From contig HG000345.1 in the NCBI GenBank assembly GCA_000436975.1, forward strand, positions 3,518 through 67,517: DNA of 64,000 nt, given 5' to 3'. A program made the translations under genes and the position numbers. The notes under the pieces are model-generated. The model saw nothing but the letters and a program-made list of their open reading frames with translations. It was not told the DNA's origin and ran no database searches. The stretch is from Clostridium sp. CAG:1000. GTDB lineage: Bacteria > Bacillota_I > Bacilli_A > RF39 > UBA660. Below, piece after piece: positions 14,052 through 34,238 of this stretch (positions are counted from its first letter, which is position 1; every line of letters begins with the position of its first letter).

Positions 14052-14449
14052 TACAAATCTTTTTCATATAGTCTATGGCATTGTCTAGAACTATAATGAG
14101 TTAATTTTGATATTTCATCCCACTTTTTCTTTTCAACATCTCTATAGTATCTCACTAGTTCACTTCCCCCATACTTAGAAATTCTTTTCATTTCTTTAAT
14201 GATATAGTTTTCATAAGCATTAATACTTTCTTGCAATGAATATATTTCACTGTCAAGCTCTTCATCTTTTATAATATAATGTGCGAATTTATCAAATATT
14301 GCTTTGCCATCATTTTTACCAGTAATAATATCTTTCATAATTGGACTCCCTGGTTGAGATTTTATAAAATTAATTTTCTTTTTTTGCAAATACAATTCTA
14401 ATGTATCTTGCAATTTATCAATTTCATTTTTGGCTTTTAATATATTCAT
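14051..14449 (-). CDS. candidate late-gene transcriptional activator (ArpU/RinA/sigma-region-4-like)
   Basis: 132 aa and the last gene before the packaging region. The C-terminal HTH-like segment is WDEISKLTHYSSRQCHRLYEK. Confidence 0.45.
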   Translation of the reverse strand: MNILKAKNEIDKLQDTLELYLQKKKINFIKSQPGSPIMKDIITGKNDGKAIFDKFAHYIIKDEELDSEIYSLQESINAYENYIIKEMKRISKYGGSELVRYYRDVEKKKWDEISKLTHYSSRQCHRLYEKDL

Positions 14450-15072
14450 TACTCACCTCTATCAAAATGCTCTTCGAGTTTACCATTCTTCATTCTGACA
14501 TATTTTGAAATAATATTCTTATAATTTATTACAAATCCTTCAACATCCCTTTTAACTTTATTAGTGTATTTCTCATAAACACTATCTAAATGTTCTTTTG
14601 TAGGTAGAATATTAAGCACTGTAACTTCTGGAACTATACCTATAAATTTTGGTATTTCTTGATTTAAAAATGGATATTTAAATAGTTCATGATCATAAAT
14701 TAGGTTATATAAGTTATATTCATCATCAATATTTGCTTTTGCGAACATGTACCATCTTTTGTCAAACTCGCTTACATCATACTTTAATTTGCCCATACCA
14801 AGCCATTCTCCACATATTGCTGAATCATTAATTAATTGTTCTTGTAAATAATCTTTATTATCTAACAACCACTGATATAATCCTTTATATAATTTATCTT
14901 TTACTTCTTTTAACTCATTGATATTAATAATTGTTTTTCTTTGAGCAAAATACAACTCATCATTTTTCTTAAAGAATACTAAATTACTTCCATCTAGTTT
15001 TTCAGTTACATATACCTTATCTCCTAAGCAACTAACTCTTTTAGTTTTTGGATATATTTCTTTCTTTATCAT
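14449..15072 (-). CDS. ATP-dependent RNA ligase-like nucleotidyltransferase (minimal, 207 aa)
   Basis: Covalent nucleotidyltransferase motifs appear in order: I TEKLDGSN (Lys25), III CGEWLG, IV EGFVI, V KYVRMK. Confidence 0.65.
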   Translation of the reverse strand: MIKKEIYPKTKRVSCLGDKVYVTEKLDGSNLVFFKKNDELYFAQRKTIININELKEVKDKLYKGLYQWLLDNKDYLQEQLINDSAICGEWLGMGKLKYDVSEFDKRWYMFAKANIDDEYNLYNLIYDHELFKYPFLNQEIPKFIGIVPEVTVLNILPTKEHLDSVYEKYTNKVKRDVEGFVINYKNIISKYVRMKNGKLEEHFDRGE

Positions 15073-24044: not shown

Positions 24045-24416
24045 ATGTCTGATACTATTTGGGTTGCTATCATAGCTGCTGCATCTGCAATTATTCCTCA
24101 ATCGATAAATGCTTATATAAACTATAAAAAAGATGTCAAACTAAAATCGCAAGATATTTATAACCAAAATCGTTTAGATGCAATAAATGAGTTTCTTGAC
24201 TCTACTGGAAGTATTTATTCAGAAGTTGGAATGTCTTTAAAAGAAAAATATAATTTTCAAAAATCTGCTCAAAAATTGTTATTATATTTTCCAAATATTA
24301 GCACCGAAACTTTTAACGAAATATTTGCATCAACCAAAGAATGGAATCCGCAGAAAAGACTTGATACTTTACAGCCATTAATTAAACAACTATCCAAATC
24401 AATAAAAGAAAAATAA
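24045..24416 (+). CDS. membrane-anchored hypothetical protein (lysogeny-direction moron; superinfection-exclusion candidate)
   Basis: ATG at 24045 follows GAAAGGAGG. It has an N-terminal TM helix IWVAIIAAASAIIPQSI. It has its own TTGATA-17-TACAAT promoter (23996-24024) and is oriented opposite to the surrounding early genes. Confidence 0.6.
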   Translation: MSDTIWVAIIAAASAIIPQSINAYINYKKDVKLKSQDIYNQNRLDAINEFLDSTGSIYSEVGMSLKEKYNFQKSAQKLLLYFPNISTETFNEIFASTKEWNPQKRLDTLQPLIKQLSKSIKEK

Positions 24417-24546
24417 TGTATGCTATGATTAAAGATATTGATAAAATTTTAATAGTTTCTCTATCATTATCTTTTTTTCTTTCATTGAAAATAAATATTA
24501 AGTAATATATCGCAATTAATATACTCACTATAATTTTAAATGTCAT
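24382..24546 (-). CDS. 54-aa two-helix hydrophobic peptide downstream of cro-like gene
   Basis: ATG at 24546 follows GGGGGAATAA. The sequence is MTFKIIVSILIAIYYLIFIFNERKKDNDRETIKILSISLIIAYIIFLLLIWIVV. It overlaps the 3' end of 24045..24416 by 35 nt, convergently. It is below the ORF-track cutoff. Confidence 0.35.
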   Translation of the reverse strand: MTFKIIVSILIAIYYLIFIFNERKKDNDRETIKILSISLIIAYIIFLLLIWIVV

Positions 24547-24559
24547 TTATTCCCCCTTA

Positions 24560-24802
24560 TTATCCTTCTTTTTCTTCACTTTGAGTGAAATAAAGTGGTA
24601 AAAAAAATTCATTAATATTGCATCCAATAACACTAGCAATTTCATTTAATTTATTTATTGAATAATTAAATGGATGATTCTTAATATTTATATAAGTTCT
24701 TTCAGTTATATTAAGTTTGCCAGCAATGTCGCTATCTAACAAGCCATATCTTTTTTGGACTGATTTAATATTTCTTATCACTTGCTCTTCATTTGTTTCC
24801 AT
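24560..24802 (-). CDS. Cro-like XRE-family HTH regulator
   Basis: 80 aa, the first gene of the leftward early operon. HTH segment DSDIAGKLNITERTYINIKN. Confidence 0.75.
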   Translation of the reverse strand: METNEEQVIRNIKSVQKRYGLLDSDIAGKLNITERTYINIKNHPFNYSINKLNEIASVIGCNINEFFLPLYFTQSEEKEG

Positions 24803-24823: not shown

Positions 24824-24909
24824 ATTGTAATTCACTCAAAGTGAATTGTCAAGCATTTTTCACAAAAAGTGAAAAAAATATTGTAAATTAGTGAAATTTA
24901 TTGTATAAT
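24824..24909. promoter_or_regulatory. divergent lysis/lysogeny switch: leftward TTGACA-17-TACAAT, rightward TTGTAA-17-TGTATAAT, with TTCAC-N5-GTGAA operators
   Basis: The leftward -35 is the revcomp of 24847-24852 and the -10 the revcomp of 24824-24829. Operator ttcactcaaagtgaa (24831-24845) fills that spacer exactly. A second operator, ttcacaaaaagtgaa, is at 24859-24873. A half-site agtgaa lies at 24890-24895. The rightward -35 is at 24881-24886 and the -10 at 24904-24909. An extra copy, ttcactttgagtgaa, lies at 24575-24589. Confidence 0.6.
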
Positions 24910-24930: not shown

Positions 24931-25287
24931 ATGAAGAATTATTTCGCTAAAAATATTAGTTATCTTATTGATAATAATATAATAAGTGTTGAAACAATTT
25001 TGAAAATTACAAATCACAATAGTCCTGGACTAATATCTATGTGGAAATCTGGTGAGCGAAATATAATGACAAATGACTTAATTGCAATCGCAAATTTTTT
25101 AAATTACACAGTAGATGATTTAATAAATAAAGATTTAAGCAAAAAAGATTCAGAACTATCAAAAAGCGAATTAGATGTTCTATTTGATAAACACAAGGAT
25201 ATATTAACTGATGATGATAAAGAAACTATTAAGTTCATTATAGAAAAAAGGAAACGAGAAATTGATAAGGAGTTGGATGGTGAATAA
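24931..25287 (+). CDS. CI-like XRE-family repressor (ImmR-like)
   Basis: ATG at 24931 follows AGGAGGGGAAGT. HTH-type N-terminus. First gene of the rightward operon that ends with the integrase. Confidence 0.7.
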   Translation: MKNYFAKNISYLIDNNIISVETILKITNHNSPGLISMWKSGERNIMTNDLIAIANFLNYTVDDLINKDLSKKDSELSKSELDVLFDKHKDILTDDDKETIKFIIEKRKREIDKELDGE

Positions 25288-26201
25288 TGGATTGTTTTAG
25301 CAAAAAAGATAAACTAATAACACTGATTCTCTGTATAATGCTCGGTTTTATAGGAATCCATCATTTCTATTGTGGAAATATCAAAAGAGGTTTTTTGTAC
25401 TTATTTACTTTTGGTTTATTCGGTCTTGGATGGTTTGTAGATATAATCATTTTACTCATAATGAATTTAGGAAAACAAAATTCAAAAAAAATGACGACAG
25501 GTTTAAATTCTAATTATGTAACAAAAAATATTTCAGTTACATCAAGTTATACTGTAGCTAATAATCCATATGCCAATGCTGTTCCTTACGAAGCATATTC
25601 AACATCCTATTCAAGTAGAAAAACAAATAAAATTGTTAATGATTATATAGTGTTTGATACCGAAACCACAGGTTTAGAACCTGAAATTGATAAGATTATT
25701 GAATTATCCGCTATAAAATTTATAAATAATAAAGAAGTTGATAGATTTTCAATGCTAGTTAATCCAAATCAAGAAATAGATCCATTTATAACATCATTAA
25801 CTGGTATAAAACAGCTAGATTTAAATTCACAACCAACAATAAACTATGTTCTTCCAAAGTTTTTTGAATTTATTGAAGATTATACTTTAGTAGCGCATAA
25901 TGCTCCATTTGATATAAAAATGCTAGCATGTGAATGTTATAGAAACAATATTAAACTATGTGATAACAAGATAATAGACACTGTTACACTAGCAAAAAGA
26001 ATAATTCCAAGTGATAATGTAGAAAATTACAAATTAGAAACACTAAAAAATTATTTAGGGCTAGATAATATTTCTCACAGAGCTTTAGCAGATTGTGAAG
26101 TATGTTCTAAAATATATAAATTATATTTGTCAAAACAACAAAATAGAAAAATATTAATTATAGATGATAATACTGGAGAAGTATTAGATGAATTAAAATA
26201 A
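25287..26201 (+). CDS. TM2-domain membrane anchor fused to DnaQ-like DEDDh 3'-5' exonuclease
   Basis: The N-terminal TM2-like segment is LILCIMLGFIGIHHFYCGNIKRGFLYLFTFGLFGLGWFVDIIILL. Exo motifs are FDTETTG, HNAPFD and HRALADCE. Its ATG shares one nucleotide with the repressor stop (TAATG). Confidence 0.8.
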   Translation: MDCFSKKDKLITLILCIMLGFIGIHHFYCGNIKRGFLYLFTFGLFGLGWFVDIIILLIMNLGKQNSKKMTTGLNSNYVTKNISVTSSYTVANNPYANAVPYEAYSTSYSSRKTNKIVNDYIVFDTETTGLEPEIDKIIELSAIKFINNKEVDRFSMLVNPNQEIDPFITSLTGIKQLDLNSQPTINYVLPKFFEFIEDYTLVAHNAPFDIKMLACECYRNNIKLCDNKIIDTVTLAKRIIPSDNVENYKLETLKNYLGLDNISHRALADCEVCSKIYKLYLSKQQNRKILIIDDNTGEVLDELK

Positions 26202-26257: not shown

Positions 26258-26566
26258 ATGGTCATAGAATTATTAAAAGGAAACATGACTCAACAAGAGT
26301 TATTAAATTATTACAATGCTAACATCACTTATGTTAGTTTGAGTAAAGGTATAAATGGATTCGTTTTCAATCATAGAGGTATATACAATATAATTATTAA
26401 TTCTAACCTATCCTATTATAAAAAAAGAAAGTCAATATTGCATGAACTTGCTCATATTGAACTTTCACATTTGGACCAAGATAAAACAATGTTAGAATTT
26501 AATAGAAATGGTTATGAAGATGAAGCAGATAGATATATTAAATACATTAAAGATAATTTAAAATAA
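26258..26566 (+). CDS. ImmA/IrrE-like zinc metallopeptidase (short form)
   Basis: Contains HELAH in SILHELAHIELSH. It lies in an operon with an XRE repressor and the integrase. Confidence 0.55.
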   Translation: MVIELLKGNMTQQELLNYYNANITYVSLSKGINGFVFNHRGIYNIIINSNLSYYKKRKSILHELAHIELSHLDQDKTMLEFNRNGYEDEADRYIKYIKDNLK

Positions 26567-26612
26567 AAAATAGCACCTGCGGCAACAGGTACTACAAATT
26601 AGAAAAACTTTG

Positions 26613-26712: not shown

Positions 26713-27834
26713 ATGAATAAAATATATGAAAAAACAAGATATGCAAACATATACAGACATAGTAAAAATGGAAACTATGTAATAAGGCATGATAGCACTA
26801 CTATATCTAAAATAAATAGTCAAAAAATATATGACATTAAAGTTGCTAAAGATTATAAAGCAAAACTGGAATTAAATATTAAAAAAATAGAACAATCAAA
26901 TAATTCTTATCTTTTCAAAGATTTATGGAATGAATATATATATCACTGTAAGGAAATATCAAAACTGTCTTATAATACATTAAAAAAGAAAAATGTAATA
27001 TATAATTGTTATTTAAAAGATTTAGAAAATTTTAGAATTGACAAAATGGTTAAAGAAAATATCATTGATTTTATGAATCAAGTTATTGCTTCTGATAAAA
27101 CAAAAAACGAAATATTAAAATTATTAAAAGCATTTATTAATTGGTGTTATGAAGAAAAAGATCTGATTAACAAAAAGCCAACTTTAGGAATTAAAAGTTT
27201 TAAAGTCGCAAAAGTAGAAATGAAATATTGGACTATTGAAGAATTTAAAAGATTTATGAAATATATGGCAAATCAAAAAGGCGACTTAGCATATCGCATA
27301 AGAATATTAGTATTAATTGAATTGCATTTAGGTGATAGAATTGGTGAAACAAGAGCATTAACATGGAGCTCTATAAATGAAGAACATTCTACAATTAAAA
27401 TATCTCATTCAATTAATTATGATAGTAAATCTAATGACTTCTTATCCAACACAAAGAATTATGGTTCAGATAGAATCGTTGATGTTAGTAATTTGTTAAT
27501 AGAGGAATTATTTAAATACAAGCGATATCTTATAGAGCAGCAAATTAATATTAACGATATAATATTTTATAATTATAACACAAATAAGCCATACTCAGAT
27601 TCAAGTTTAAGAAAACAATTTTATCGTTTCTCAAAAGAGGCAGGAGTTTCAAAAATAAGATTATATGATTTAAGACATACATATGTCGCATTAATGATGA
27701 GCGAGGGTTGGGAATTATATCATATTTCAAGAAGAATCGGTCACACCAATTATTCCACAACAGTAAACAAGTATGGTCATTTAGAAAATAATATTAGAAA
27801 GGAGATAGCAAAAACTACCGATAAATATTTTTAA
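26713..27834 (+). CDS. int: tyrosine recombinase / phage integrase
   Basis: C-terminal catalytic pattern GDRIGETRAL...RLYDLRHTY...GHTNYSTTVNKYGHL (R..HxxR..Y). Confidence 0.9.
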   Translation: MNKIYEKTRYANIYRHSKNGNYVIRHDSTTISKINSQKIYDIKVAKDYKAKLELNIKKIEQSNNSYLFKDLWNEYIYHCKEISKLSYNTLKKKNVIYNCYLKDLENFRIDKMVKENIIDFMNQVIASDKTKNEILKLLKAFINWCYEEKDLINKKPTLGIKSFKVAKVEMKYWTIEEFKRFMKYMANQKGDLAYRIRILVLIELHLGDRIGETRALTWSSINEEHSTIKISHSINYDSKSNDFLSNTKNYGSDRIVDVSNLLIEELFKYKRYLIEQQININDIIFYNYNTNKPYSDSSLRKQFYRFSKEAGVSKIRLYDLRHTYVALMMSEGWELYHISRRIGHTNYSTTVNKYGHLENNIRKEIAKTTDKYF

Positions 27835-27983: not shown

Positions 27984-28007
27984 GTGTCTAAGAAAGGTTG
28001 TGATGAT

Positions 28008-28289
28008 ATGTTAAATATTATTAAAGAAAAACTTGATTTAAGCCCTGATTTAAAGAAAAAGATTGATTGGGCTAAGAATTATACTTCTACTTCAATAACT
28101 CTTGAGAAAGGTCATTTAATTAGATTAGAACCTAGTAATCTTGCTTATGTAGATCCACATAAAGTTAAAATCAATAATTATACTTTCTTGTTCTTCAATG
28201 GTGTTAATACTTTCTATGTTAATAACCTAAATGACGGGCATAATCTATCAGAACTAGAAAAATTCTTTAAACTAGCTAAATGCTCTTAA
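28008..28289 (+). CDS. hypothetical protein
   Basis: 93-aa ORF (start trimmed to MLNIIKEK). No recognisable motif. Confidence 0.45.
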   Translation: MLNIIKEKLDLSPDLKKKIDWAKNYTSTSITLEKGHLIRLEPSNLAYVDPHKVKINNYTFLFFNGVNTFYVNNLNDGHNLSELEKFFKLAKCS

Positions 28290-28310
28290 TACTATTCCCT
28301 CAATAAGGAA

Positions 28311-28338
28311 TTGACAAATATTTAAAAAGTGATATTAT
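28311..28338 (+). promoter_or_regulatory. sigma-A-type promoter TTGACA-16-TGaTATTAT
   Basis: TTGACA at 28311-28316 and an extended -10 at 28330-28338. Confidence 0.5.
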
Positions 28339-28382
28339 AAATAACCAATGAAAGAGGTAACTCTAGAAATGGAGGTACATCT

Positions 28383-28460
28383 ATGAAAATAAAACACAAT
28401 ATATCGAAATTTTATAATATTGAATTTAATGAGGAGTCAGTAGTATTTAGACTTTACTAG
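28383..28460 (+). CDS. 25-aa leader peptide MKIKHNISKFYNIEFNEESVVFRLY
   Basis: GGAGG lies 8 nt upstream of the ATG. The last ten codons cover the 5' arm and loop of the downstream terminator. Confidence 0.35.
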   Translation: MKIKHNISKFYNIEFNEESVVFRLY

Positions 28461-28482
28461 ATACTATTGTCTCCTCTTTTTT
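28431..28482 (+). terminator. strong intrinsic terminator/attenuator immediately upstream of the serine recombinase RBS
   Basis: 16-bp stem gaggagtcagtagtat / atactattgtctcctc (one mismatch, one G-U) followed by TTTTTT. Confidence 0.7.
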
Positions 28483-28487
28483 AGTAA

Positions 28488-30338
<1,851 letters not shown>

Positions 30339-30353
30339 TCCTTAGACCACGAA

Positions 30354-30380
30354 ATCTTGTATGGAGAATCCGTACAAGAT
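30354..30380 (+). promoter_or_regulatory. candidate oriT (RS_A-like inverted repeat)
   Basis: atcttgtatgg-agaat-ccgtacaagat (11-bp arms, one G-T) lies 70 nt upstream of mob. A second imperfect inverted repeat, atatcttgg...ccagatat, is at 30394-30416. Confidence 0.45.
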
Positions 30381-30452
30381 ATCTAGGGGGTTATATATCT
30401 TGGATGTCCCAGATATGGTCCAAAATAACCCACACTAAAAAGGAGGAATTAT

Positions 30453-31865
30453 ATGGCTGAATTACCTTATTCATTTCATCTTGGAAGTAATAAAAATAGA
30501 AAAGCATCAGCAAGAAGTAATGCTAGAAATAATGTAAGTGGTTCTTCTTCTCTAGCTAATAATGGAATACAAAATTATCAACAATTATCAAAAGTAAATA
30601 ATCATGATTTTAGAAAATACGAAAATGATAATGATTATATTTATCAATTAAAAGGAACTAATGATATTGTTTATGATGTTAAAGAATTCTATAAAACTGA
30701 ATTTGAAGAAGCAAGAATCGAATACAACAATAAGCAATCTAGACCTAGTAGAAGAATTGATGATTATTTTGAATATGTTAATAAAGATGAGAAAAGAGAT
30801 CTTGCTTGTGAGATTATAATTGAACTTGGAAATAAAGAATATTGGGATTCAAAAGATTTTGAATTTAAAAGAGAAATGGTTAGTGTATATGAAGAACATT
30901 TACACGATTTAGAAAGACTTGTTCCAGAATTTAAAATAACAAATGCTGTTGTTCATTTAGATGAAACTTCTCCTCACATGCATATAGTTGGAGTTCCAGT
31001 TAAAGATGGTTGTAAAACAGGTTTATCAAAACAAGTAAATAAATCATCAGTTTTTACTAAAGAAAGACTTGAAAATATACAAAATGTAATGAGAGAAAAA
31101 TGTATTGATACTTTTAATAAATACTTTGAAAAAGAAAATGCTACTCTTAAGACTAAAGAAAAAGGAAGAAATAAAGATATTCACGTTAAAGATATGGTTA
31201 ATTATCAAGAATTAAAAAAAGAACTTGAAATTAATAAAAGAAGTATTGATAAAAACAATGATAAGATAAAATCGATAAACAACTCTTCAAAAGAGTTGAG
31301 AGATTTATTATCAGGTTTAGAAGAATCGAGACTTGGTGGTTATAAACTTAATAATAAACAAAAAGAAAGATTACAAGATTTAATTAAAGATGTTGAATCC
31401 ATAACTAATTATTTTGATAATTATAAAAATATAATTAATAATATATCTTCAATTAATGATAATTTAAAATATCAAAAAGATAGAAATAATAAAGTTGAAA
31501 ATGACAATAATAAACTTATTAAAGAAAATCAAAAACTTAAAATAAAAAATACCGAATTAAAAGAAGATAGAGATTTTGTTCATGCAGTTATGGATAAGAG
31601 AATGGATGAAAGAAAAGACTTTATAACTTATCTATGTAAAAATGCTAACAGCAAAGATCCAACTACCTCTAGATTTTTTAGACAAGTTGTTAATGATATG
31701 AATAGCAAAAACTTAATAACTGATAAAGAACATAGAGTTATATTAAATCCACCTAGAACCATTAATAAATCAGAAATAAATAAAGCACTTAGTTCTATTA
31801 ATAGAAAAATGGATGAAGCTGCTGAAGAATTTTATCAAACAAAAAAGGACGATTATTATTTATAA
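30453..31865 (+). CDS. mob: MobV-family (Mob/Pre) relaxase
   Basis: Contains the signature HLDETSPHMH and an N-terminal NNHDFRKYEN (HxxR-type) motif. The C-terminal half is a long coiled coil. Confidence 0.85.
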   Translation: MAELPYSFHLGSNKNRKASARSNARNNVSGSSSLANNGIQNYQQLSKVNNHDFRKYENDNDYIYQLKGTNDIVYDVKEFYKTEFEEARIEYNNKQSRPSRRIDDYFEYVNKDEKRDLACEIIIELGNKEYWDSKDFEFKREMVSVYEEHLHDLERLVPEFKITNAVVHLDETSPHMHIVGVPVKDGCKTGLSKQVNKSSVFTKERLENIQNVMREKCIDTFNKYFEKENATLKTKEKGRNKDIHVKDMVNYQELKKELEINKRSIDKNNDKIKSINNSSKELRDLLSGLEESRLGGYKLNNKQKERLQDLIKDVESITNYFDNYKNIINNISSINDNLKYQKDRNNKVENDNNKLIKENQKLKIKNTELKEDRDFVHAVMDKRMDERKDFITYLCKNANSKDPTTSRFFRQVVNDMNSKNLITDKEHRVILNPPRTINKSEINKALSSINRKMDEAAEEFYQTKKDDYYL

Positions 31866-32999: not shown

Positions 33000-34238
33000 T
33001 TATTGTAATTCAACTTTTAAAAATACTTTCTTACCTTTTTGAACAATTAATTCTCCATTGTTAAAATCATCTTTAGTTATTATTCTATCAATATTACTTT
33101 CTTTTTCTTGATTAATACTAATACCATTTTGTTCCATTAATCTTCTTGCTTCTGATTTTGAAGATACTATTTTAATATCAACTAATAAATCTAAAACATT
33201 AATATCTAATTTATTAGAATCAAACTTAACTGATGGCATATTTTCAGATATACCTTTATTACTAAATAATTCTTCAGCAGTTTGTCTAGCTTTAATTGCT
33301 TCTTCTTCACCATGTACTAGCTTAGTTACTTCAAATGCTAATAATTTTTTAGCTTCTCTAATATCTTTCTTACATAATTCTTTTATATCAGATATTTCCA
33401 TTCTAGTAAAGAATGATAAACTTCTTTCAACATCTTCATCAAATGAATTAATCCATGCTTGAAAGAAATCAAATGGTGTAGTTTTGTCTCTTGATACCCA
33501 TAATGTACCAGTAGCTGTTTTACCCATTTTTTCTCCATCTGCTTTAATTAATAATGGACAAGTAAATCCAAATAATGGATCTATCTTTTTACCCTCACTA
33601 AATCCTATTTTTCTAGATAAATCAGCACCAGCTAAAATATTTCCCCATTGATCTGAACCACCAATTTGTAATCTACATCCAAATTCTTTATTTAAATGTA
33701 CAAAGTCAAATGCTTGCATTAACATATATCCCATCTCTAAAAATGTTAATCCACCATTTTCTAATCTCTTTTTGTAACAATCTGCAGCAAGCATATTATT
33801 AACATTGAAGTGAACTCCAATATCTCTCATAAAATCAACATAAGTTTGATCCATAATCCAATCAGCATTATCAACTATAATTGCTGGATTATCTCCATCA
33901 GTTCTTACAAATCTTTTTACTAATTCTTTAACTTCTGCTTTATTATGAGCAACTTCTTCTTTTGATAGCATTTTTCTCATATCACTTTTACCAGTTGGAT
34001 CTCCAATTAAAGCAGTAGCTCCACCAATTAGTATAATTCCATGATGACCAAAATCTTGTAGCCATCTAAACATAGTTAATGCAAAGAAGTGTCCTATGTG
34101 TAATGAATCTGCAGTAGGGTCAATTCCTAAGTAGAATGTCATAGGTTCTCCATTAACTAAATCAATAATTTCTTGTTCATGTGTAAGGTCTTTAACATAA
34201 CCTCTTTCTTTTAAAATATCAAATAATTTCTTTTCCAT
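33000..34238 (-). CDS. tyrS: tyrosine--tRNA ligase
   Basis: HIGH motif (SLHIGHF), KMSKS variant (KMGKT) and a C-terminal S4-like domain. Confidence 0.95.
   Translation of the reverse strand: MEKKLFDILKERGYVKDLTHEQEIIDLVNGEPMTFYLGIDPTADSLHIGHFFALTMFRWLQDFGHHGIILIGGATALIGDPTGKSDMRKMLSKEEVAHNKAEVKELVKRFVRTDGDNPAIIVDNADWIMDQTYVDFMRDIGVHFNVNNMLAADCYKKRLENGGLTFLEMGYMLMQAFDFVHLNKEFGCRLQIGGSDQWGNILAGADLSRKIGFSEGKKIDPLFGFTCPLLIKADGEKMGKTATGTLWVSRDKTTPFDFFQAWINSFDEDVERSLSFFTRMEISDIKELCKKDIREAKKLLAFEVTKLVHGEEEAIKARQTAEELFSNKGISENMPSVKFDSNKLDINVLDLLVDIKIVSSKSEARRLMEQNGISINQEKESNIDRIITKDDFNNGELIVQKGKKVFLKVELQ

What the first reader, a model, noticed from the sequence alone, without database searches (positions are those of the whole stretch)
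25287..26201. Membrane-anchored DEDDh exonuclease translationally coupled to the prophage repressor
A TM2-type double-helix membrane anchor is joined through a Ser/Tyr/Asn-rich linker to a complete DnaQ-like 3'-5' exonuclease (DTE, HNAPFD, HRALAD).

The gene sits between the CI-like repressor and the ImmA-like peptidase. Its ATG overlaps the repressor stop (TAATG), so it should be made in the lysogen.

A nuclease tethered to the membrane and expressed with the repressor could act as a superinfection-exclusion or defence factor that attacks incoming DNA ends. It could also modulate induction. I know of no characterised system with this architecture.
Basis: partly seen in the sequence, partly recalled or inferred. 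Interest (0 to 1): 0.65.

Follow-up and report, generated by a model that had tools for sequence, protein, structure and literature searches.

The report
Membrane-tethered exonuclease in prophage immunity operon
A prophage of an uncultured gut bacterium carries, right behind its repressor gene, an optional gene for a DNA-chewing enzyme anchored to the inner face of the cell membrane; it most likely destroys foreign DNA as it enters, a defence idea so far shown for only one unrelated nuclease.

Summary
ORF 25287-26201 (+) encodes 304 aa: a TM2 two-helix anchor (E 1e-17), a disordered linker, and a complete DnaQ/PolC-type DEDDh exonuclease (E 2e-35). Its catalytic residues are invariant in 41 relatives. 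Its ATG overlaps the stop of an XRE-type repressor (TAATG), and an ImmA-like M78 peptidase and a tyrosine integrase follow.

New findings:
- Membrane-anchored DnaQ-like exonucleases are a large uncharacterised family: at least 100 clusters at 50% identity, named only "Pol III epsilon".
- In all 10 contexts examined the gene lies directly downstream of a prophage (or, once, plasmid) repressor.
- It is an optional cassette. Phages with a 99%-identical repressor and identical operators lack it, with a clean ~910-bp indel.
- In related phages the same slot holds other membrane proteins, including a homologue of the characterised exclusion protein Ltp.
- The N-terminal anchor is interchangeable (TM2, unrelated TM helices, DUF4428), as in SNIPE.
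- Variants with the order exo-TM2 and no signal peptide place the nuclease in the cytoplasm.

The best explanation is a lysogen-expressed exclusion or defence nuclease that attacks entering DNA ends at the membrane. The function is inferred, not shown. I rate it a new variant of a known kind, interest 0.6.

The parts
24560..24802 (-). Cro-like small regulator (80 aa), transcribed divergently from the repressor operon
   Evidence: ORF. Weak hits to a 'control protein' model and to HipB-like HTH. The positional counterpart in the 98%-identical locus L014 (74 aa) carries HTH_3/HTH_19.
24824..24909 (.). Genetic switch: two operator-like palindromes TTCAC-N5-GTGAA (24831-24845, 24859-24873) interleaved with divergent sigma-70-like promoters. 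On the - strand, 24852-24824, TTGACA-17-TACAAT. On the + strand, 24881-24909, TTGTAA-17-TATAAT. A third palindrome lies at 24575-24589.
   Evidence: Five palindromes in the window against 0.29 expected. Promoter scan. The first 112 nt are 100% identical in the exo-less homoimmune phage L208.
24931..25287 (+). XRE-type HTH repressor (ImmR/CI-like), 118 aa. A GGAGGGG ribosome-binding site lies upstream of ATG 24931.
   Evidence: HTH_3 E 1.8e-4; phrog_8 and phrog_4 regulator/repressor. 53% identical to the L012 homologue, which has a confident HTH_3 hit. Paired with an M78 peptidase.
25287..26201 (+). The TM2-anchored DEDDh 3'-5' exonuclease gene (304 aa). Its ATG overlaps the repressor stop (TAATG).
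25299..25448 (+). TM2 domain (aa 5-54): two transmembrane helices joined by a short loop; the membrane anchor.
   Evidence: PF05154 E 1.1e-17. Hydropathy peaks at aa 10-28 and 40-58 in the 98%-identical homologue P0001. Helices in the AF2 model.
25461..25568 (+). Flexible Ser/Thr/Asn/Tyr-rich linker (aa 59-94). In many relatives this position holds a CxxC...CxxC zinc ribbon.
   Evidence: pLDDT below 50 for aa 65-80. Alignment A1.
25569..25643 (+). Conserved pre-exonuclease element NPYxNAVPxxxYxxxYxxRK (aa 95-119), modelled as packed on the exonuclease domain.
   Evidence: Alignment A1. pLDDT 88-98. Present in 13 of the 150 best representatives.
25647..26117 (+). DEDDh (DnaQ/PolC-type) exonuclease domain, aa 121-277. 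Catalytic residues D124, E126, D209, H264, D269.
   Evidence: PF00929 E 1.7e-35. PDB PolC exonuclease 2p1j E 3.6e-26. Foldseek. Catalytic residues invariant or nearly so.
26136..26198 (+). Conserved C-terminal tail KKILIIDDNTGEVLDELK (aa 284-304), modelled as a beta-hairpin; function unknown.
   Evidence: Present in most close relatives regardless of anchor type. Only 6 of the 150 representatives have it. pLDDT about 76-78.
26258..26566 (+). ImmA/IrrE-like M78 metallopeptidase (102 aa, HELAH motif), the presumed anti-repressor protease.
   Evidence: PF06114 E 1.8e-8; phrog_87 metallo-protease.
26713..27834 (+). Tyrosine integrase (373 aa); right end of the prophage.
   Evidence: PF00589 E 6e-19; phrog_1 E 8e-50.

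Best explanation
The gene is an optional cargo cassette (a moron) placed in the classical superinfection-exclusion slot of a temperate siphovirus. It sits immediately downstream of, and is co-transcribed and translationally coupled with, the prophage repressor.

Its product is an active DnaQ/PolC-type 3'-5' exonuclease. An N-terminal TM2 hairpin and a flexible linker hold it on the cytoplasmic face of the membrane.

In the lysogen it most likely acts as an exclusion or defence nuclease. Confined to the membrane, it meets the free 3' ends of linear DNA as that DNA is injected by a superinfecting phage. Trimming or resecting those ends would prevent circularisation and establishment. The circular chromosome and the integrated prophage offer no ends at the membrane and are spared. 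Self and non-self are therefore told apart by location and DNA topology, as shown experimentally for the unrelated membrane-bound GIY-YIG nuclease SNIPE.

Shown here:
- The architecture and the intact catalytic site.
- The conserved position behind repressors.
- The cassette presence/absence polymorphism.
- Slot sharing with an Ltp-type exclusion gene.
- Interchangeable anchors.
- The cytoplasmic orientation, by comparative inference.

Inferred:
- Expression in the lysogen.
- DNA (rather than RNA) as the substrate.
- Incoming phage DNA as the target.
- The protective phenotype.
For: 1. Active enzyme. The full DEDDh motif set is invariant across 41 relatives at 32-89% identity, and the DnaQ fold is modelled with confidence.

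2. Conserved position. All 10 independent contexts place the gene directly downstream of the repressor, on the same strand. The gaps range from a 14-nt overlap to about 130 nt, with one of about 520 nt. A tyrosine or serine recombinase follows in 9 of the 10. The repressors are ImmR/ImmA-type, LexA-like S24-type or plain HTH. The same arrangement appears in a GC-rich IMG/VR contig (L113).

3. Optional cassette. IMG/VR phages with a 99%-identical repressor, a 93%-identical M78 and 100%-identical operators have the repressor abutting M78. Similarity breaks exactly at the repressor stop. Only 2 of about 25 related contigs carry the exonuclease.

4. Shared slot. In relatives the same slot holds other, mostly membrane-anchored, cargo. 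One is a Zn-ribbon-TM-PASTA-2xLtp protein (PF07553, E 5e-46). Ltp is a lysogeny-module exclusion protein that blocks DNA injection (PMC3952083).

5. Interchangeable anchors. Exonuclease cores 60-70% identical to this one carry TM2, unrelated 1-2 TM helices, DUF4428, or TM plus DUF4428. Among the 150 best 50%-identity representatives, 57 are TM2+exo and 47 are other-TM+exo. SNIPE homologues show the same pattern: a conserved nuclease with a variable N-terminus of TM, PH or DUF4428.

6. Cytoplasmic orientation.
- Seven representatives have the exonuclease at the extreme N-terminus without a signal peptide, followed by a C-terminal TM2.
- Zinc ribbons or DUF4428 occur N-terminal to the anchor or in the linker.
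- K+R counts are 218 on the two flanks against 89 in the loop.

7. Transcription. No terminator lies between the repressor promoter and the gene.

8. Precedents. DEDDh models in PADLOC (Cas-associated DEDDh, candidate PDC-S48) match the domain. DEDDh exonucleases with auxiliary domains defend in prophage contexts (TONDOs).
Against: - There are no experimental data of any kind for this family, and no transcript evidence.
- The topology is inferred. Eukaryotic TM2D proteins are reported (from my own knowledge) with the opposite orientation, and the loop also carries about 2 positive charges.
- A DnaQ-type exonuclease removes nucleotides one by one from 3' ends. Whether that is fast enough to stop an injected 30-40 kb genome is unknown, as is how it would handle 5'-overhang cos ends or protein-capped ends.
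- No DNA-binding or tape-measure-binding module like SNIPE's DUF4041 is recognisable.
- The PADLOC PDC-S48 match covers only the generic exonuclease part.
- The C-terminal tail and the pre-exonuclease motif are unexplained by the model.
- TONDO-type DEDDh defence acts on RNA, so DNA is not the only possible substrate.
Confidence: 0.55

Rival explanations
1. It is a gatekeeper against transformation or conjugation rather than against phages. Transforming ssDNA enters 3' end first through ComEC (established for B. subtilis and S. pneumoniae; from my own knowledge). The membrane-tethered 3'-5' exonuclease would degrade it and so protect the prophage from being cured by recombination with prophage-free alleles.
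For: The same architecture and cytoplasmic membrane location apply. The 3'-5' polarity matches the leading end of transforming DNA. DnaQ/PolC/DinG-type exonucleases prefer ssDNA (closest structures).
Against: The slot is shared with an Ltp-type phage-exclusion protein. Nothing is known about competence in the uncultured host. The family occurs in many taxa regardless of known competence.
Confidence: 0.1
2. It is an abortive-infection toxin. The membrane tether keeps a dangerous exonuclease away from the nucleoid. Infection (membrane perturbation or proteolytic cleavage of the linker) releases or activates it, and it degrades host and phage nucleic acids.
For: Removing the TM segment of SNIPE makes it toxic. 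The long disordered linker is a plausible cleavage site. An M78 protease gene is adjacent in the window.
Against: Most contexts lack an M78 protease. An exonuclease needs free ends and is a poor toxin for a circular chromosome. There is no sensor module.
Confidence: 0.1
3. It targets RNA or small nucleotides rather than DNA. It could be a TONDO/ISG20-like exoribonuclease trimming viral or host RNA 3' ends at the membrane, or a degrader of nucleotide second messengers.
For: DEDDh enzymes act on RNA as well as DNA. TONDOs with varied auxiliary domains in prophages defend against RNA phages. There are weak Pfam hits to the Rv2179c-like exoribonuclease family in relatives.
Against: The best sequence and structure matches are DNA proofreading exonucleases: PolC, DnaQ, DinG and Cas2-DEDDh. 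RNA phages of Gram-positive bacteria are essentially unknown (from my own knowledge).
Confidence: 0.1
4. It is a housekeeping function of the phage itself, as current annotations imply ('DNA polymerase III epsilon'). It would be a proofreading or recombination accessory, or a modulator of the induction signal (ssDNA) sensed by ImmA or RecA.
For: The only names any source gives it are Pol III epsilon or DNA polymerase. It is adjacent to the repressor and anti-repressor genes.
Against: - Homoimmune phages with identical switches lack it.
- A membrane anchor is hard to reconcile with replisome proofreading.
- The equivalog cutoffs for epsilon, PolC and DinG are not reached (for example 102.8 against 222.7 bits).
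- It is on the lysogenic, not the early-lytic, transcript.
- It occurs with three different repressor types.
Confidence: 0.07
5. It is an extracellular, membrane-anchored nuclease (N-out/C-out topology) that degrades environmental DNA or DNA in the wall space.
For: Eukaryotic TM2D proteins are described with a cytoplasmic loop (from my own knowledge). The loop carries about 2 Lys/Arg. The Ser/Thr/Asn-rich linker resembles wall-spanning linkers.
Against: Exo-TM2 variants have no signal peptide. Zinc ribbons and DUF4428 occur on both sides of the anchor. The flank-to-loop charge balance is 218 to 89. The domain is rich in cysteines.
Confidence: 0.03

Closest known systems
SNIPE (membrane-bound GIY-YIG nuclease of E. 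coli; Saxton et al., Nature 2026, PMC13190303)
   Same: A nuclease tethered by an N-terminal transmembrane segment to the cytoplasmic face of the membrane. The nuclease is conserved while the N-terminal membrane-targeting module is highly variable, and DUF4428 occurs as an alternative to a TM segment. Self and non-self are told apart by location.
   Different: The catalytic fold is unrelated (GIY-YIG endonuclease against DEDDh 3'-5' exonuclease). There is no DUF4041 DNA/tape-measure-binding domain. SNIPE is from E. coli and was tested experimentally. This family sits behind prophage repressors in low-GC Gram-positive-type bacteria and is untested.
Lysogeny-module superinfection-exclusion proteins of Gram-positive phages (Ltp of S. 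thermophilus TP-J34, PMC3952083; Sie2009 of lactococcal phages and lambda cI-rexAB as a positional analogue, from my own knowledge)
   Same: Encoded in the lysogeny module and transcribed with the repressor in the prophage state. Membrane-anchored. Optional cargo. An Ltp homologue occupies the very same repressor-M78 slot in a related phage (L226).
   Different: Ltp and Sie proteins are non-enzymatic blockers. Ltp is exposed on the outside of the membrane and binds the tape measure protein. This protein carries a catalytic nuclease on the inside. There is no sequence similarity.
TONDO / ISG20-like DEDDh defence exonucleases (PMC13344964, preprint 2026)
   Same: A DEDDh exonuclease joined to a variable auxiliary domain, often in prophages, with a defence phenotype that depends on the nuclease in some members.
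   Different: TONDOs trim the RNA 3' ends of ssRNA phages and were picked as ISG20 homologues, mainly in proteobacteria. No membrane anchor is reported. The present domain is closest to DNA proofreading exonucleases. A sequence relationship was not tested.
DnaQ / PolC proofreading exonuclease domain, DinG N-terminal exonuclease, Cas2-DEDDh
   Same: The same fold and catalytic motifs. These are the best sequence and structure matches: 2p1j, 8h18, 8zef and 8fy9 at 31-35% identity (Foldseek, for the first three).
   Different: Those are soluble and act within a replisome, helicase or CRISPR-adaptation complex. This protein is a membrane-tethered stand-alone enzyme in a lysogeny operon, and it fails the NCBIfam equivalog cutoffs.
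PADLOC candidate PDC-S48 and diDNases (NrnC-like DEDD nucleases in Gram-positive genomic islands, PMC11706625)
   Same: DEDD-superfamily nucleases carried as cargo of mobile elements, with a suspected immunity role.
   Different: The PDC-S48 models (411 and 512 positions) match only over their N-terminal exonuclease part. diDNases are NrnC-type dinucleases of a different subfamily and have no membrane anchor.

Membership tests
DEDDh (DnaQ-like, PF00929 RNase_T) exonuclease superfamily | ExoI D-x-E, ExoII D and ExoIII H-x4-D motifs in order | tested here: met
   D124/E126, D209 and H264/D269. They are invariant or at least 90% conserved in 41 relatives. PF00929 E 1.7e-35 over the full model.
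DEDDh (DnaQ-like, PF00929 RNase_T) exonuclease superfamily | RNase H-like alpha/beta DnaQ fold | tested here: met
   AF2 pLDDT above 90 over the domain. Foldseek probability 1.00 and target TM-score 0.75-0.85 to PolC exonuclease, DnaQ and epsilon.
DEDDh (DnaQ-like, PF00929 RNase_T) exonuclease superfamily | Metal-dependent 3'-5' exonuclease activity | not testable with these tools
   Requires biochemistry.
TM2 domain (PF05154) | Two transmembrane helices joined by a short loop, matching the family profile above its curated cutoff | tested here: met
   64.4 bits against a cutoff of 27.9, aa 5-54. Hydropathy and AF2 helices.
DNA polymerase III epsilon / PolC / DinG (the annotation given by sources) | Reaches the curated equivalog score of the NCBIfam models (full-length architecture with polymerase- or helicase-interacting parts) | tested here: not met
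   dnaQ_proteo 102.8 against 222.7; PRK05711 100.9 against 196; PolC 151 against 873; DinG 121.7 against 789. Only the generic domain model TIGR00573 passes (104.9 against 71.5).
SNIPE | GIY-YIG nuclease domain | tested here: not met
   Pfam and PADLOC scans find only DEDDh/RNase_T.
SNIPE | DUF4041 middle domain | tested here: not met
   No hit. The region between anchor and nuclease is a disordered linker.
SNIPE | N-terminal membrane-targeting region, variable among homologues, with the nuclease in the cytoplasm | tested here: met
   TM2, other TM helices and DUF4428 are swapped on a conserved exonuclease core. Cytoplasmic orientation is inferred from exo-TM2 variants. This is an analogy, not homology.
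Prophage superinfection-exclusion genes of the lysogeny module (Ltp / Sie2009 type) | Located in the lysogeny module on the repressor transcript, as optional cargo | tested here: met
   10 of 10 contexts. Cassette indel. No terminator upstream.
Prophage superinfection-exclusion genes of the lysogeny module (Ltp / Sie2009 type) | Sequence homology to Ltp (PF07553) or other known Sie proteins | tested here: not met
   No such Pfam hit in the window protein. An Ltp homologue is an alternative occupant of the slot.
Prophage superinfection-exclusion genes of the lysogeny module (Ltp / Sie2009 type) | Blocks establishment of superinfecting phage DNA | not testable with these tools
   Requires phage challenge experiments.
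PADLOC candidate PDC-S48 | Full-length match to the PDC-S48 profiles | tested here: not met
   Only profile positions 4-173 of 411 (and 20-174 of 512) are matched.
TONDO (ISG20-like defence exonucleases) | Closer sequence relationship to ISG20/TONDOs than to other DEDDh clades; RNA 3'-end trimming | not tested
   No TONDO sequences were on hand. The paper reports no membrane anchor.

The most novel reading that the evidence does not exclude
Membrane-tethered DnaQ-type exonucleases form a widespread, previously unrecognised class of "DNA-entry gatekeepers" carried by temperate phages. They need no sequence or modification recognition. They destroy any linear nucleic acid whose 3' end emerges at the inner face of the membrane, whether from injected phage genomes or from transforming ssDNA, which enters 3' end first. 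The prophage would thereby exclude rival phages and also shut down natural transformation that could cure it. The interchangeable anchors (TM2, other TM helices, DUF4428) would target different entry portals.
Probability: 0.15. Interest if true: 0.8.

Novelty: new variant of a known kind. Interest (0 to 1): 0.6.

Why it matters
If confirmed, this would be the second, mechanistically independent example of immunity by location, after SNIPE: a nuclease that spares self because it sits at the DNA entry site. Here it would be an exonuclease, and one carried by prophages of Gram-positive-type gut bacteria.

It would assign a function to a large family that databases mislabel as "DNA polymerase III epsilon": at least 100 clusters at 50% identity among the best 150 representatives.

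It also offers naturally occurring phage pairs with and without the cassette for clean tests, and it marks the repressor-proximal slot of these phages as a place to mine further membrane-associated exclusion genes.

It may also bear on how prophages shape phage susceptibility, and possibly DNA uptake, in the human gut microbiome.

Tried and rejected
- Genome-contig scan with the family alignment. The back-translated patterns came from the exonuclease core and retrieved only generic DnaQ, DinG and PolC-like loci. None of the 80 kept loci covered the TM2 part, so it gave no taxonomic distribution of the fusion.
- Viral-contig scan with the alignment. It was mostly generic as well. Only L112, L113, L119 and L138 were informative.
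- Annotated phage collection by tblastn. No deposited phage has the full-length fusion. The C. difficile phiCDHM11-like gp33 and C. tetani phiCT9441A gp78 share only the soluble exonuclease.
- Literature searches for TM2 with exonuclease, prophage or superinfection found nothing relevant. The one hit (stlA) only mentions TM2 neighbours.
- Cluster-member look-up for organism names returned only "DNA polymerase III epsilon" and no taxa.
- TyrRS search for host identity resolved only to uncultured "Bacilli bacterium" MAGs.
- diDNases were considered and rejected as the family. They are NrnC-type and soluble.
- A canonical lipoprotein signal was considered and rejected. LILC at aa 13-16 lacks the small residue before Cys, and the segment is covered by the TM2 profile.
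- Functional coupling of the exonuclease to the M78 peptidase was rejected, because most contexts lack M78 and gene order varies.
- PDB search with the repressor gave nothing significant.
Full report
**1. What is there**

The ORF 25287..26201 (+) encodes 304 aa. Pfam finds two domains:
- a TM2 domain at aa 5-54 (E 1.1e-17, 64.4 bits against a cutoff of 27.9);
- a complete RNase_T/DEDDh exonuclease at aa 121-277 (E 1.7e-35).

In an alignment of 41 TM2-exonuclease relatives (32-89% identity), D124, D209, H264 and D269 are invariant and E126 is nearly so.

The AlphaFold2 model has mean pLDDT 87.6. It shows:
- an N-terminal helical hairpin;
- a disordered stretch at aa 65-80;
- a well-packed DnaQ fold that already begins at about aa 95;
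- a short C-terminal beta-hairpin.

By sequence and by fold, the nearest solved structures are the PolC exonuclease domain (2p1j), S. thermophilus DnaQ (8h18), S. aureus DinG, Cas2-DEDDh and Pol III epsilon. None of the NCBIfam equivalog cutoffs for epsilon, PolC or DinG is reached. Only the generic domain model passes.

**2. Setting**

The window's left 27.8 kb is a siphovirus-type prophage with major tail, major head, portal, terminase, Erf and DnaD-like loader genes, all on the minus strand. The lysogeny operon runs the other way:
- XRE-type repressor, 24931-25287;
- the exonuclease gene;
- an ImmA/IrrE-like M78 peptidase, 26258-26566;
- a tyrosine integrase, 26713-27834.

The repressor's own HTH hit is weak. 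However, it is 53% identical to a homologue with a confident HTH_3 hit, and it faces a Cro-like gene across a 128-bp switch. That switch holds two TTCAC-N5-GTGAA palindromes and divergent promoter-like sites.

The exonuclease ATG overlaps the repressor stop (TAATG). No terminator-like site lies between the repressor promoter and the end of the M78 gene. Co-expression with the repressor in the lysogen is therefore a reasonable inference, but it is untested.

The host is an uncultured gut bacterium of 25-30% GC. Its nearest named relatives are "Bacilli bacterium" MAGs.

**3. The family**

A search of 5.8 billion proteins found many clusters with the same TM2+RNase_T architecture. None has any name other than "DNA polymerase III epsilon".

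A profile search of 1.84 billion 50%-identity representatives gave the following among its best 150:

| Architecture | Representatives |
|---|---|
| TM2 + exonuclease | 57 |
| Exonuclease behind unrelated N-terminal TM helices | 47 |
| Non-TM N-terminal extension | 15 |
| Bare exonuclease | 27 |
| TM2 repeats only, no exonuclease | 4 |

Proteins whose exonuclease core is 60-70% identical to the window's carry quite different N-termini:
- one or two unrelated TM helices;
- TM plus zinc ribbon;
- DUF4428;
- TM2 plus a zinc-ribbon segment resembling DUF4428 (no Pfam DUF4428 hit);
- TM plus DUF4428.

They keep the pre-exonuclease motif NPYxNAVPxxxYxxxYxxRK and the C-terminal tail KKIIIIDEETGEVLEE. 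The constant part is thus the nuclease. The anchor is a swappable module, so TM2 itself is not the point.

**4. Topology**

No topology predictor was available, so I used comparative arguments.
- Seven representatives have the reverse order. The exonuclease starts at residue 10-40 with no signal peptide, followed by a linker and a C-terminal TM2. An N-terminal 200-aa domain without a signal peptide is cytoplasmic. The TM2 hairpin is therefore N-in/C-in, and the same orientation puts the exonuclease of the TM2-exo order in the cytoplasm.
- Zinc ribbons and DUF4428 occur N-terminal to the anchor (P0017) and in the linker.
- Lys+Arg counts over the 41 sequences are 75 in the N-tail and 143 in the C-flank, against 89 in the loop.

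Together these favour a cytoplasmic, membrane-tethered nuclease. The caveat is that eukaryotic TM2D proteins are described with the opposite orientation (from my own knowledge).

**5. Genomic behaviour**

All ten independent contexts looked up place the gene immediately downstream of a repressor on the same strand:

| Protein | Gene order |
|---|---|
| Window, P0001, P0007 | HTH-exo-M78-Int |
| P0015 | HTH-M78-exo-Int |
| P0065 | HTH-exo-Int |
| P0038 | S24 cI-exo-Int |
| P0052 | S24 cI-exo-Int |
| P0072 | S24 cI-exo-(other cargo)-Int |
| P0105 | S24 cI-exo-159 aa-serine recombinase |
| P0057 | HTH ... exo-Pmp3-Int |
| P0113 | three HTH genes, then exo, on a C. kluyveri plasmid |

A GC-rich IMG/VR contig shows S24 cI-TM-exo-Int as well (L113).

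Most telling is the comparison with related IMG/VR phages. Those whose repressor is 99% and whose M78 is 93% identical to the window's have the two genes adjacent, with no exonuclease. Only 2 of about 25 related contigs carry it. The DNA alignment is 100% identical through the operators and about 96% identical through the repressor gene. It breaks exactly after the TAA. Similarity resumes at ...AATAAGTATGCTAG just after the exonuclease stop. This is a clean ~910-bp cassette.

In other relatives the same slot holds different cargo, mostly membrane-anchored:
- a 229-aa protein with two TM helices;
- a 192-aa protein with two TM helices;
- small TM proteins of 115, 84 and 59 aa.

In L226 the slot holds a Zn-ribbon-TM-PASTA protein with two Lipoprotein_Ltp domains (PF07553, E 5e-46). 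Ltp of S. thermophilus phage TP-J34 is the prototype lysogeny-module exclusion protein. [quoted passage not shown]

**6. Mechanism**

The features are:
- an intact nuclease;
- tethering to the cytoplasmic side;
- expression with the repressor;
- dispensability for the phage;
- a slot shared with a known exclusion gene;
- interchangeable membrane-targeting modules.

Together they fit a lysogen-expressed exclusion or defence nuclease that acts on nucleic acid entering through the membrane.

The closest functional precedent is SNIPE. It is a constitutively membrane-bound GIY-YIG nuclease with its nuclease in the cytoplasm. It cleaves lambda DNA during, but not after, injection, and it becomes toxic without its TM segment. 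Its homologues have conserved nucleases and highly variable N-terminal targeting regions, including TM segments, PH domains and DUF4428 (PMC13190303). The recurrence of DUF4428 as an alternative to a TM anchor in both families is a striking parallel.

For an exonuclease, the likely action is removal of 3' overhangs or 3'-strand resection of the first DNA end to enter. That would prevent cos annealing and ligation, or recombination-dependent circularisation. The end-free chromosome and the integrated prophage would be immune. These mechanistic steps are inference.

I put 0.55 on "defence or exclusion by attacking entering DNA". The underlying structural and genomic description is much more secure, at about 0.9.

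**7. Rivals**

These are detailed, with evidence for and against, in the Rival explanations section:
- a block to transformation or conjugation, for which the 3'-5' polarity fits ssDNA that enters 3' end first;
- an abortive-infection toxin released from the membrane;
- an RNA or oligonucleotide target, as for the TONDO DEDDh defence exonucleases (PMC13344964);
- a phage housekeeping or induction role, argued against by the exo-less homoimmune phages and by the anchor;
- an extracellular nuclease, argued against by the topology evidence.

**8. Comparison and novelty**

The protein is a bona fide member of the DEDDh superfamily and of the TM2 family. It is not a member of the following:
- SNIPE: no GIY-YIG, no DUF4041;
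- Ltp or Sie families: no homology;
- Pol III epsilon, PolC or DinG equivalogs;
- PADLOC PDC-S48: only the generic exonuclease part matches.

Relationship to the TONDOs was not tested.

No paper in the searchable library describes a membrane-anchored DnaQ-like exonuclease in a lysogeny module.

It is best classed as a new variant of a known kind. The known kinds are prophage exclusion cargo and membrane-localised anti-phage nucleases. It has a new effector fold and a large, mis-annotated family behind it.

I score interest at 0.6. The concept is no longer unprecedented after SNIPE. However, the family is big, the comparative evidence is unusually clean, natural controls with and without the cassette exist, and the exonuclease chemistry raises a real mechanistic question.

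Noticed in passing
window 24045-24416 (+) and 24382-24546 (-): A 123-aa protein with an N-terminal TM helix is encoded on the + strand, amid minus-strand early genes. It is conserved at the same place in the 98%-related locus L014 (6747-7118). A 54-aa double-TM ORF lies on the - strand. The first could be a second lysogen-expressed membrane cargo gene. It has only a sub-threshold Pfam hit (YbaJ, E 0.0024).
   Followed up: partly
window 24575-24589, 24831-24845, 24859-24873: Three operator-like palindromes TTCAC-N5-GTGAA (5 matches in the window against 0.29 expected). Two lie in the repressor/cro intergenic switch and overlap the promoter-like hexamers. One lies inside the 3' end of the cro-like gene.
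   Followed up: partly
window 27984-31865: Directly beyond the prophage integrase lie a 101-aa ORF, a large serine recombinase (28494-30338) and a Mob_Pre relaxase (30453-31865). This looks like a small integrative mobilisable element inserted in tandem with the prophage, before host genes (TyrRS at 33000-34238).
   Followed up: partly
window 26570-26595: An 11-bp-stem hairpin lies just after the M78 gene. Its T-tract is on the minus strand only, so it looks like a terminator for leftward transcription, although no leftward gene ends there. Its effect on read-through from the lysogeny operon into the integrase gene is unclear.
   Followed up: no
L226 3347-4039; L219 3358-4047; L207 2369-2947; L201 2595-2942; L221 3332-3586; L225 3120-3299; L220 3339-3833: In related IMG/VR phages the repressor-M78 slot holds other cargo: a Zn-ribbon-TM-PASTA-2xLtp protein, several uncharacterised proteins with one or two TM helices, and a 164-aa soluble TPR-like protein. 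The slot is a hotspot for membrane-associated accessory genes worth mining.
   Followed up: partly
proteins P0198, P0199, P0211, P0218, P0231, P0248, P0268: Reverse-order variants (exonuclease at the N-terminus, TM2 at the C-terminus) exist as separate 50%-identity clusters. P0199 carries an additional N-terminal Cys-rich (SWIM-like) segment.
   Followed up: partly
proteins P0178, P0193, P0224, P0252: Proteins made of 6-7 tandem TM2 domains (577-757 aa) and no exonuclease ranked among the best profile hits. Their function is unknown.
   Followed up: no
window 26136-26198 (aa 284-304) and 25569-25643 (aa 95-119): Two short conserved elements, the C-terminal tail KKILIIDDNTGEVLDELK and the motif NPYxNAVPxxxYxxxYxxRK, travel with the exonuclease core whatever the anchor. 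They match no known motif I could identify and may be partner-binding sites.
   Followed up: partly
L138 4758-5345: A DUF4236+TM2 protein without an exonuclease sits between an HTH repressor and a large serine recombinase in another IMG/VR phage. TM2-anchored proteins in general may be lysogeny-module cargo.
   Followed up: no
L002 3764-4906 (C. tetani phage phiCT9441A gp78) and P0065/P0105/P0084: A sister architecture joins the exonuclease to a roughly 150-aa C-terminal domain (DEDDh_C, PF21762, weak), with or without TM2. In phiCT9441A the gene is the last one before attR, another typical moron position.
   Followed up: partly
window 14449-15072 (-): A 207-aa phage protein matches phrog_20735 (E 2e-55) and, more weakly, an RNA-ligase family (phrog_548). 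This is unusual cargo between the packaging and replication modules.
   Followed up: no
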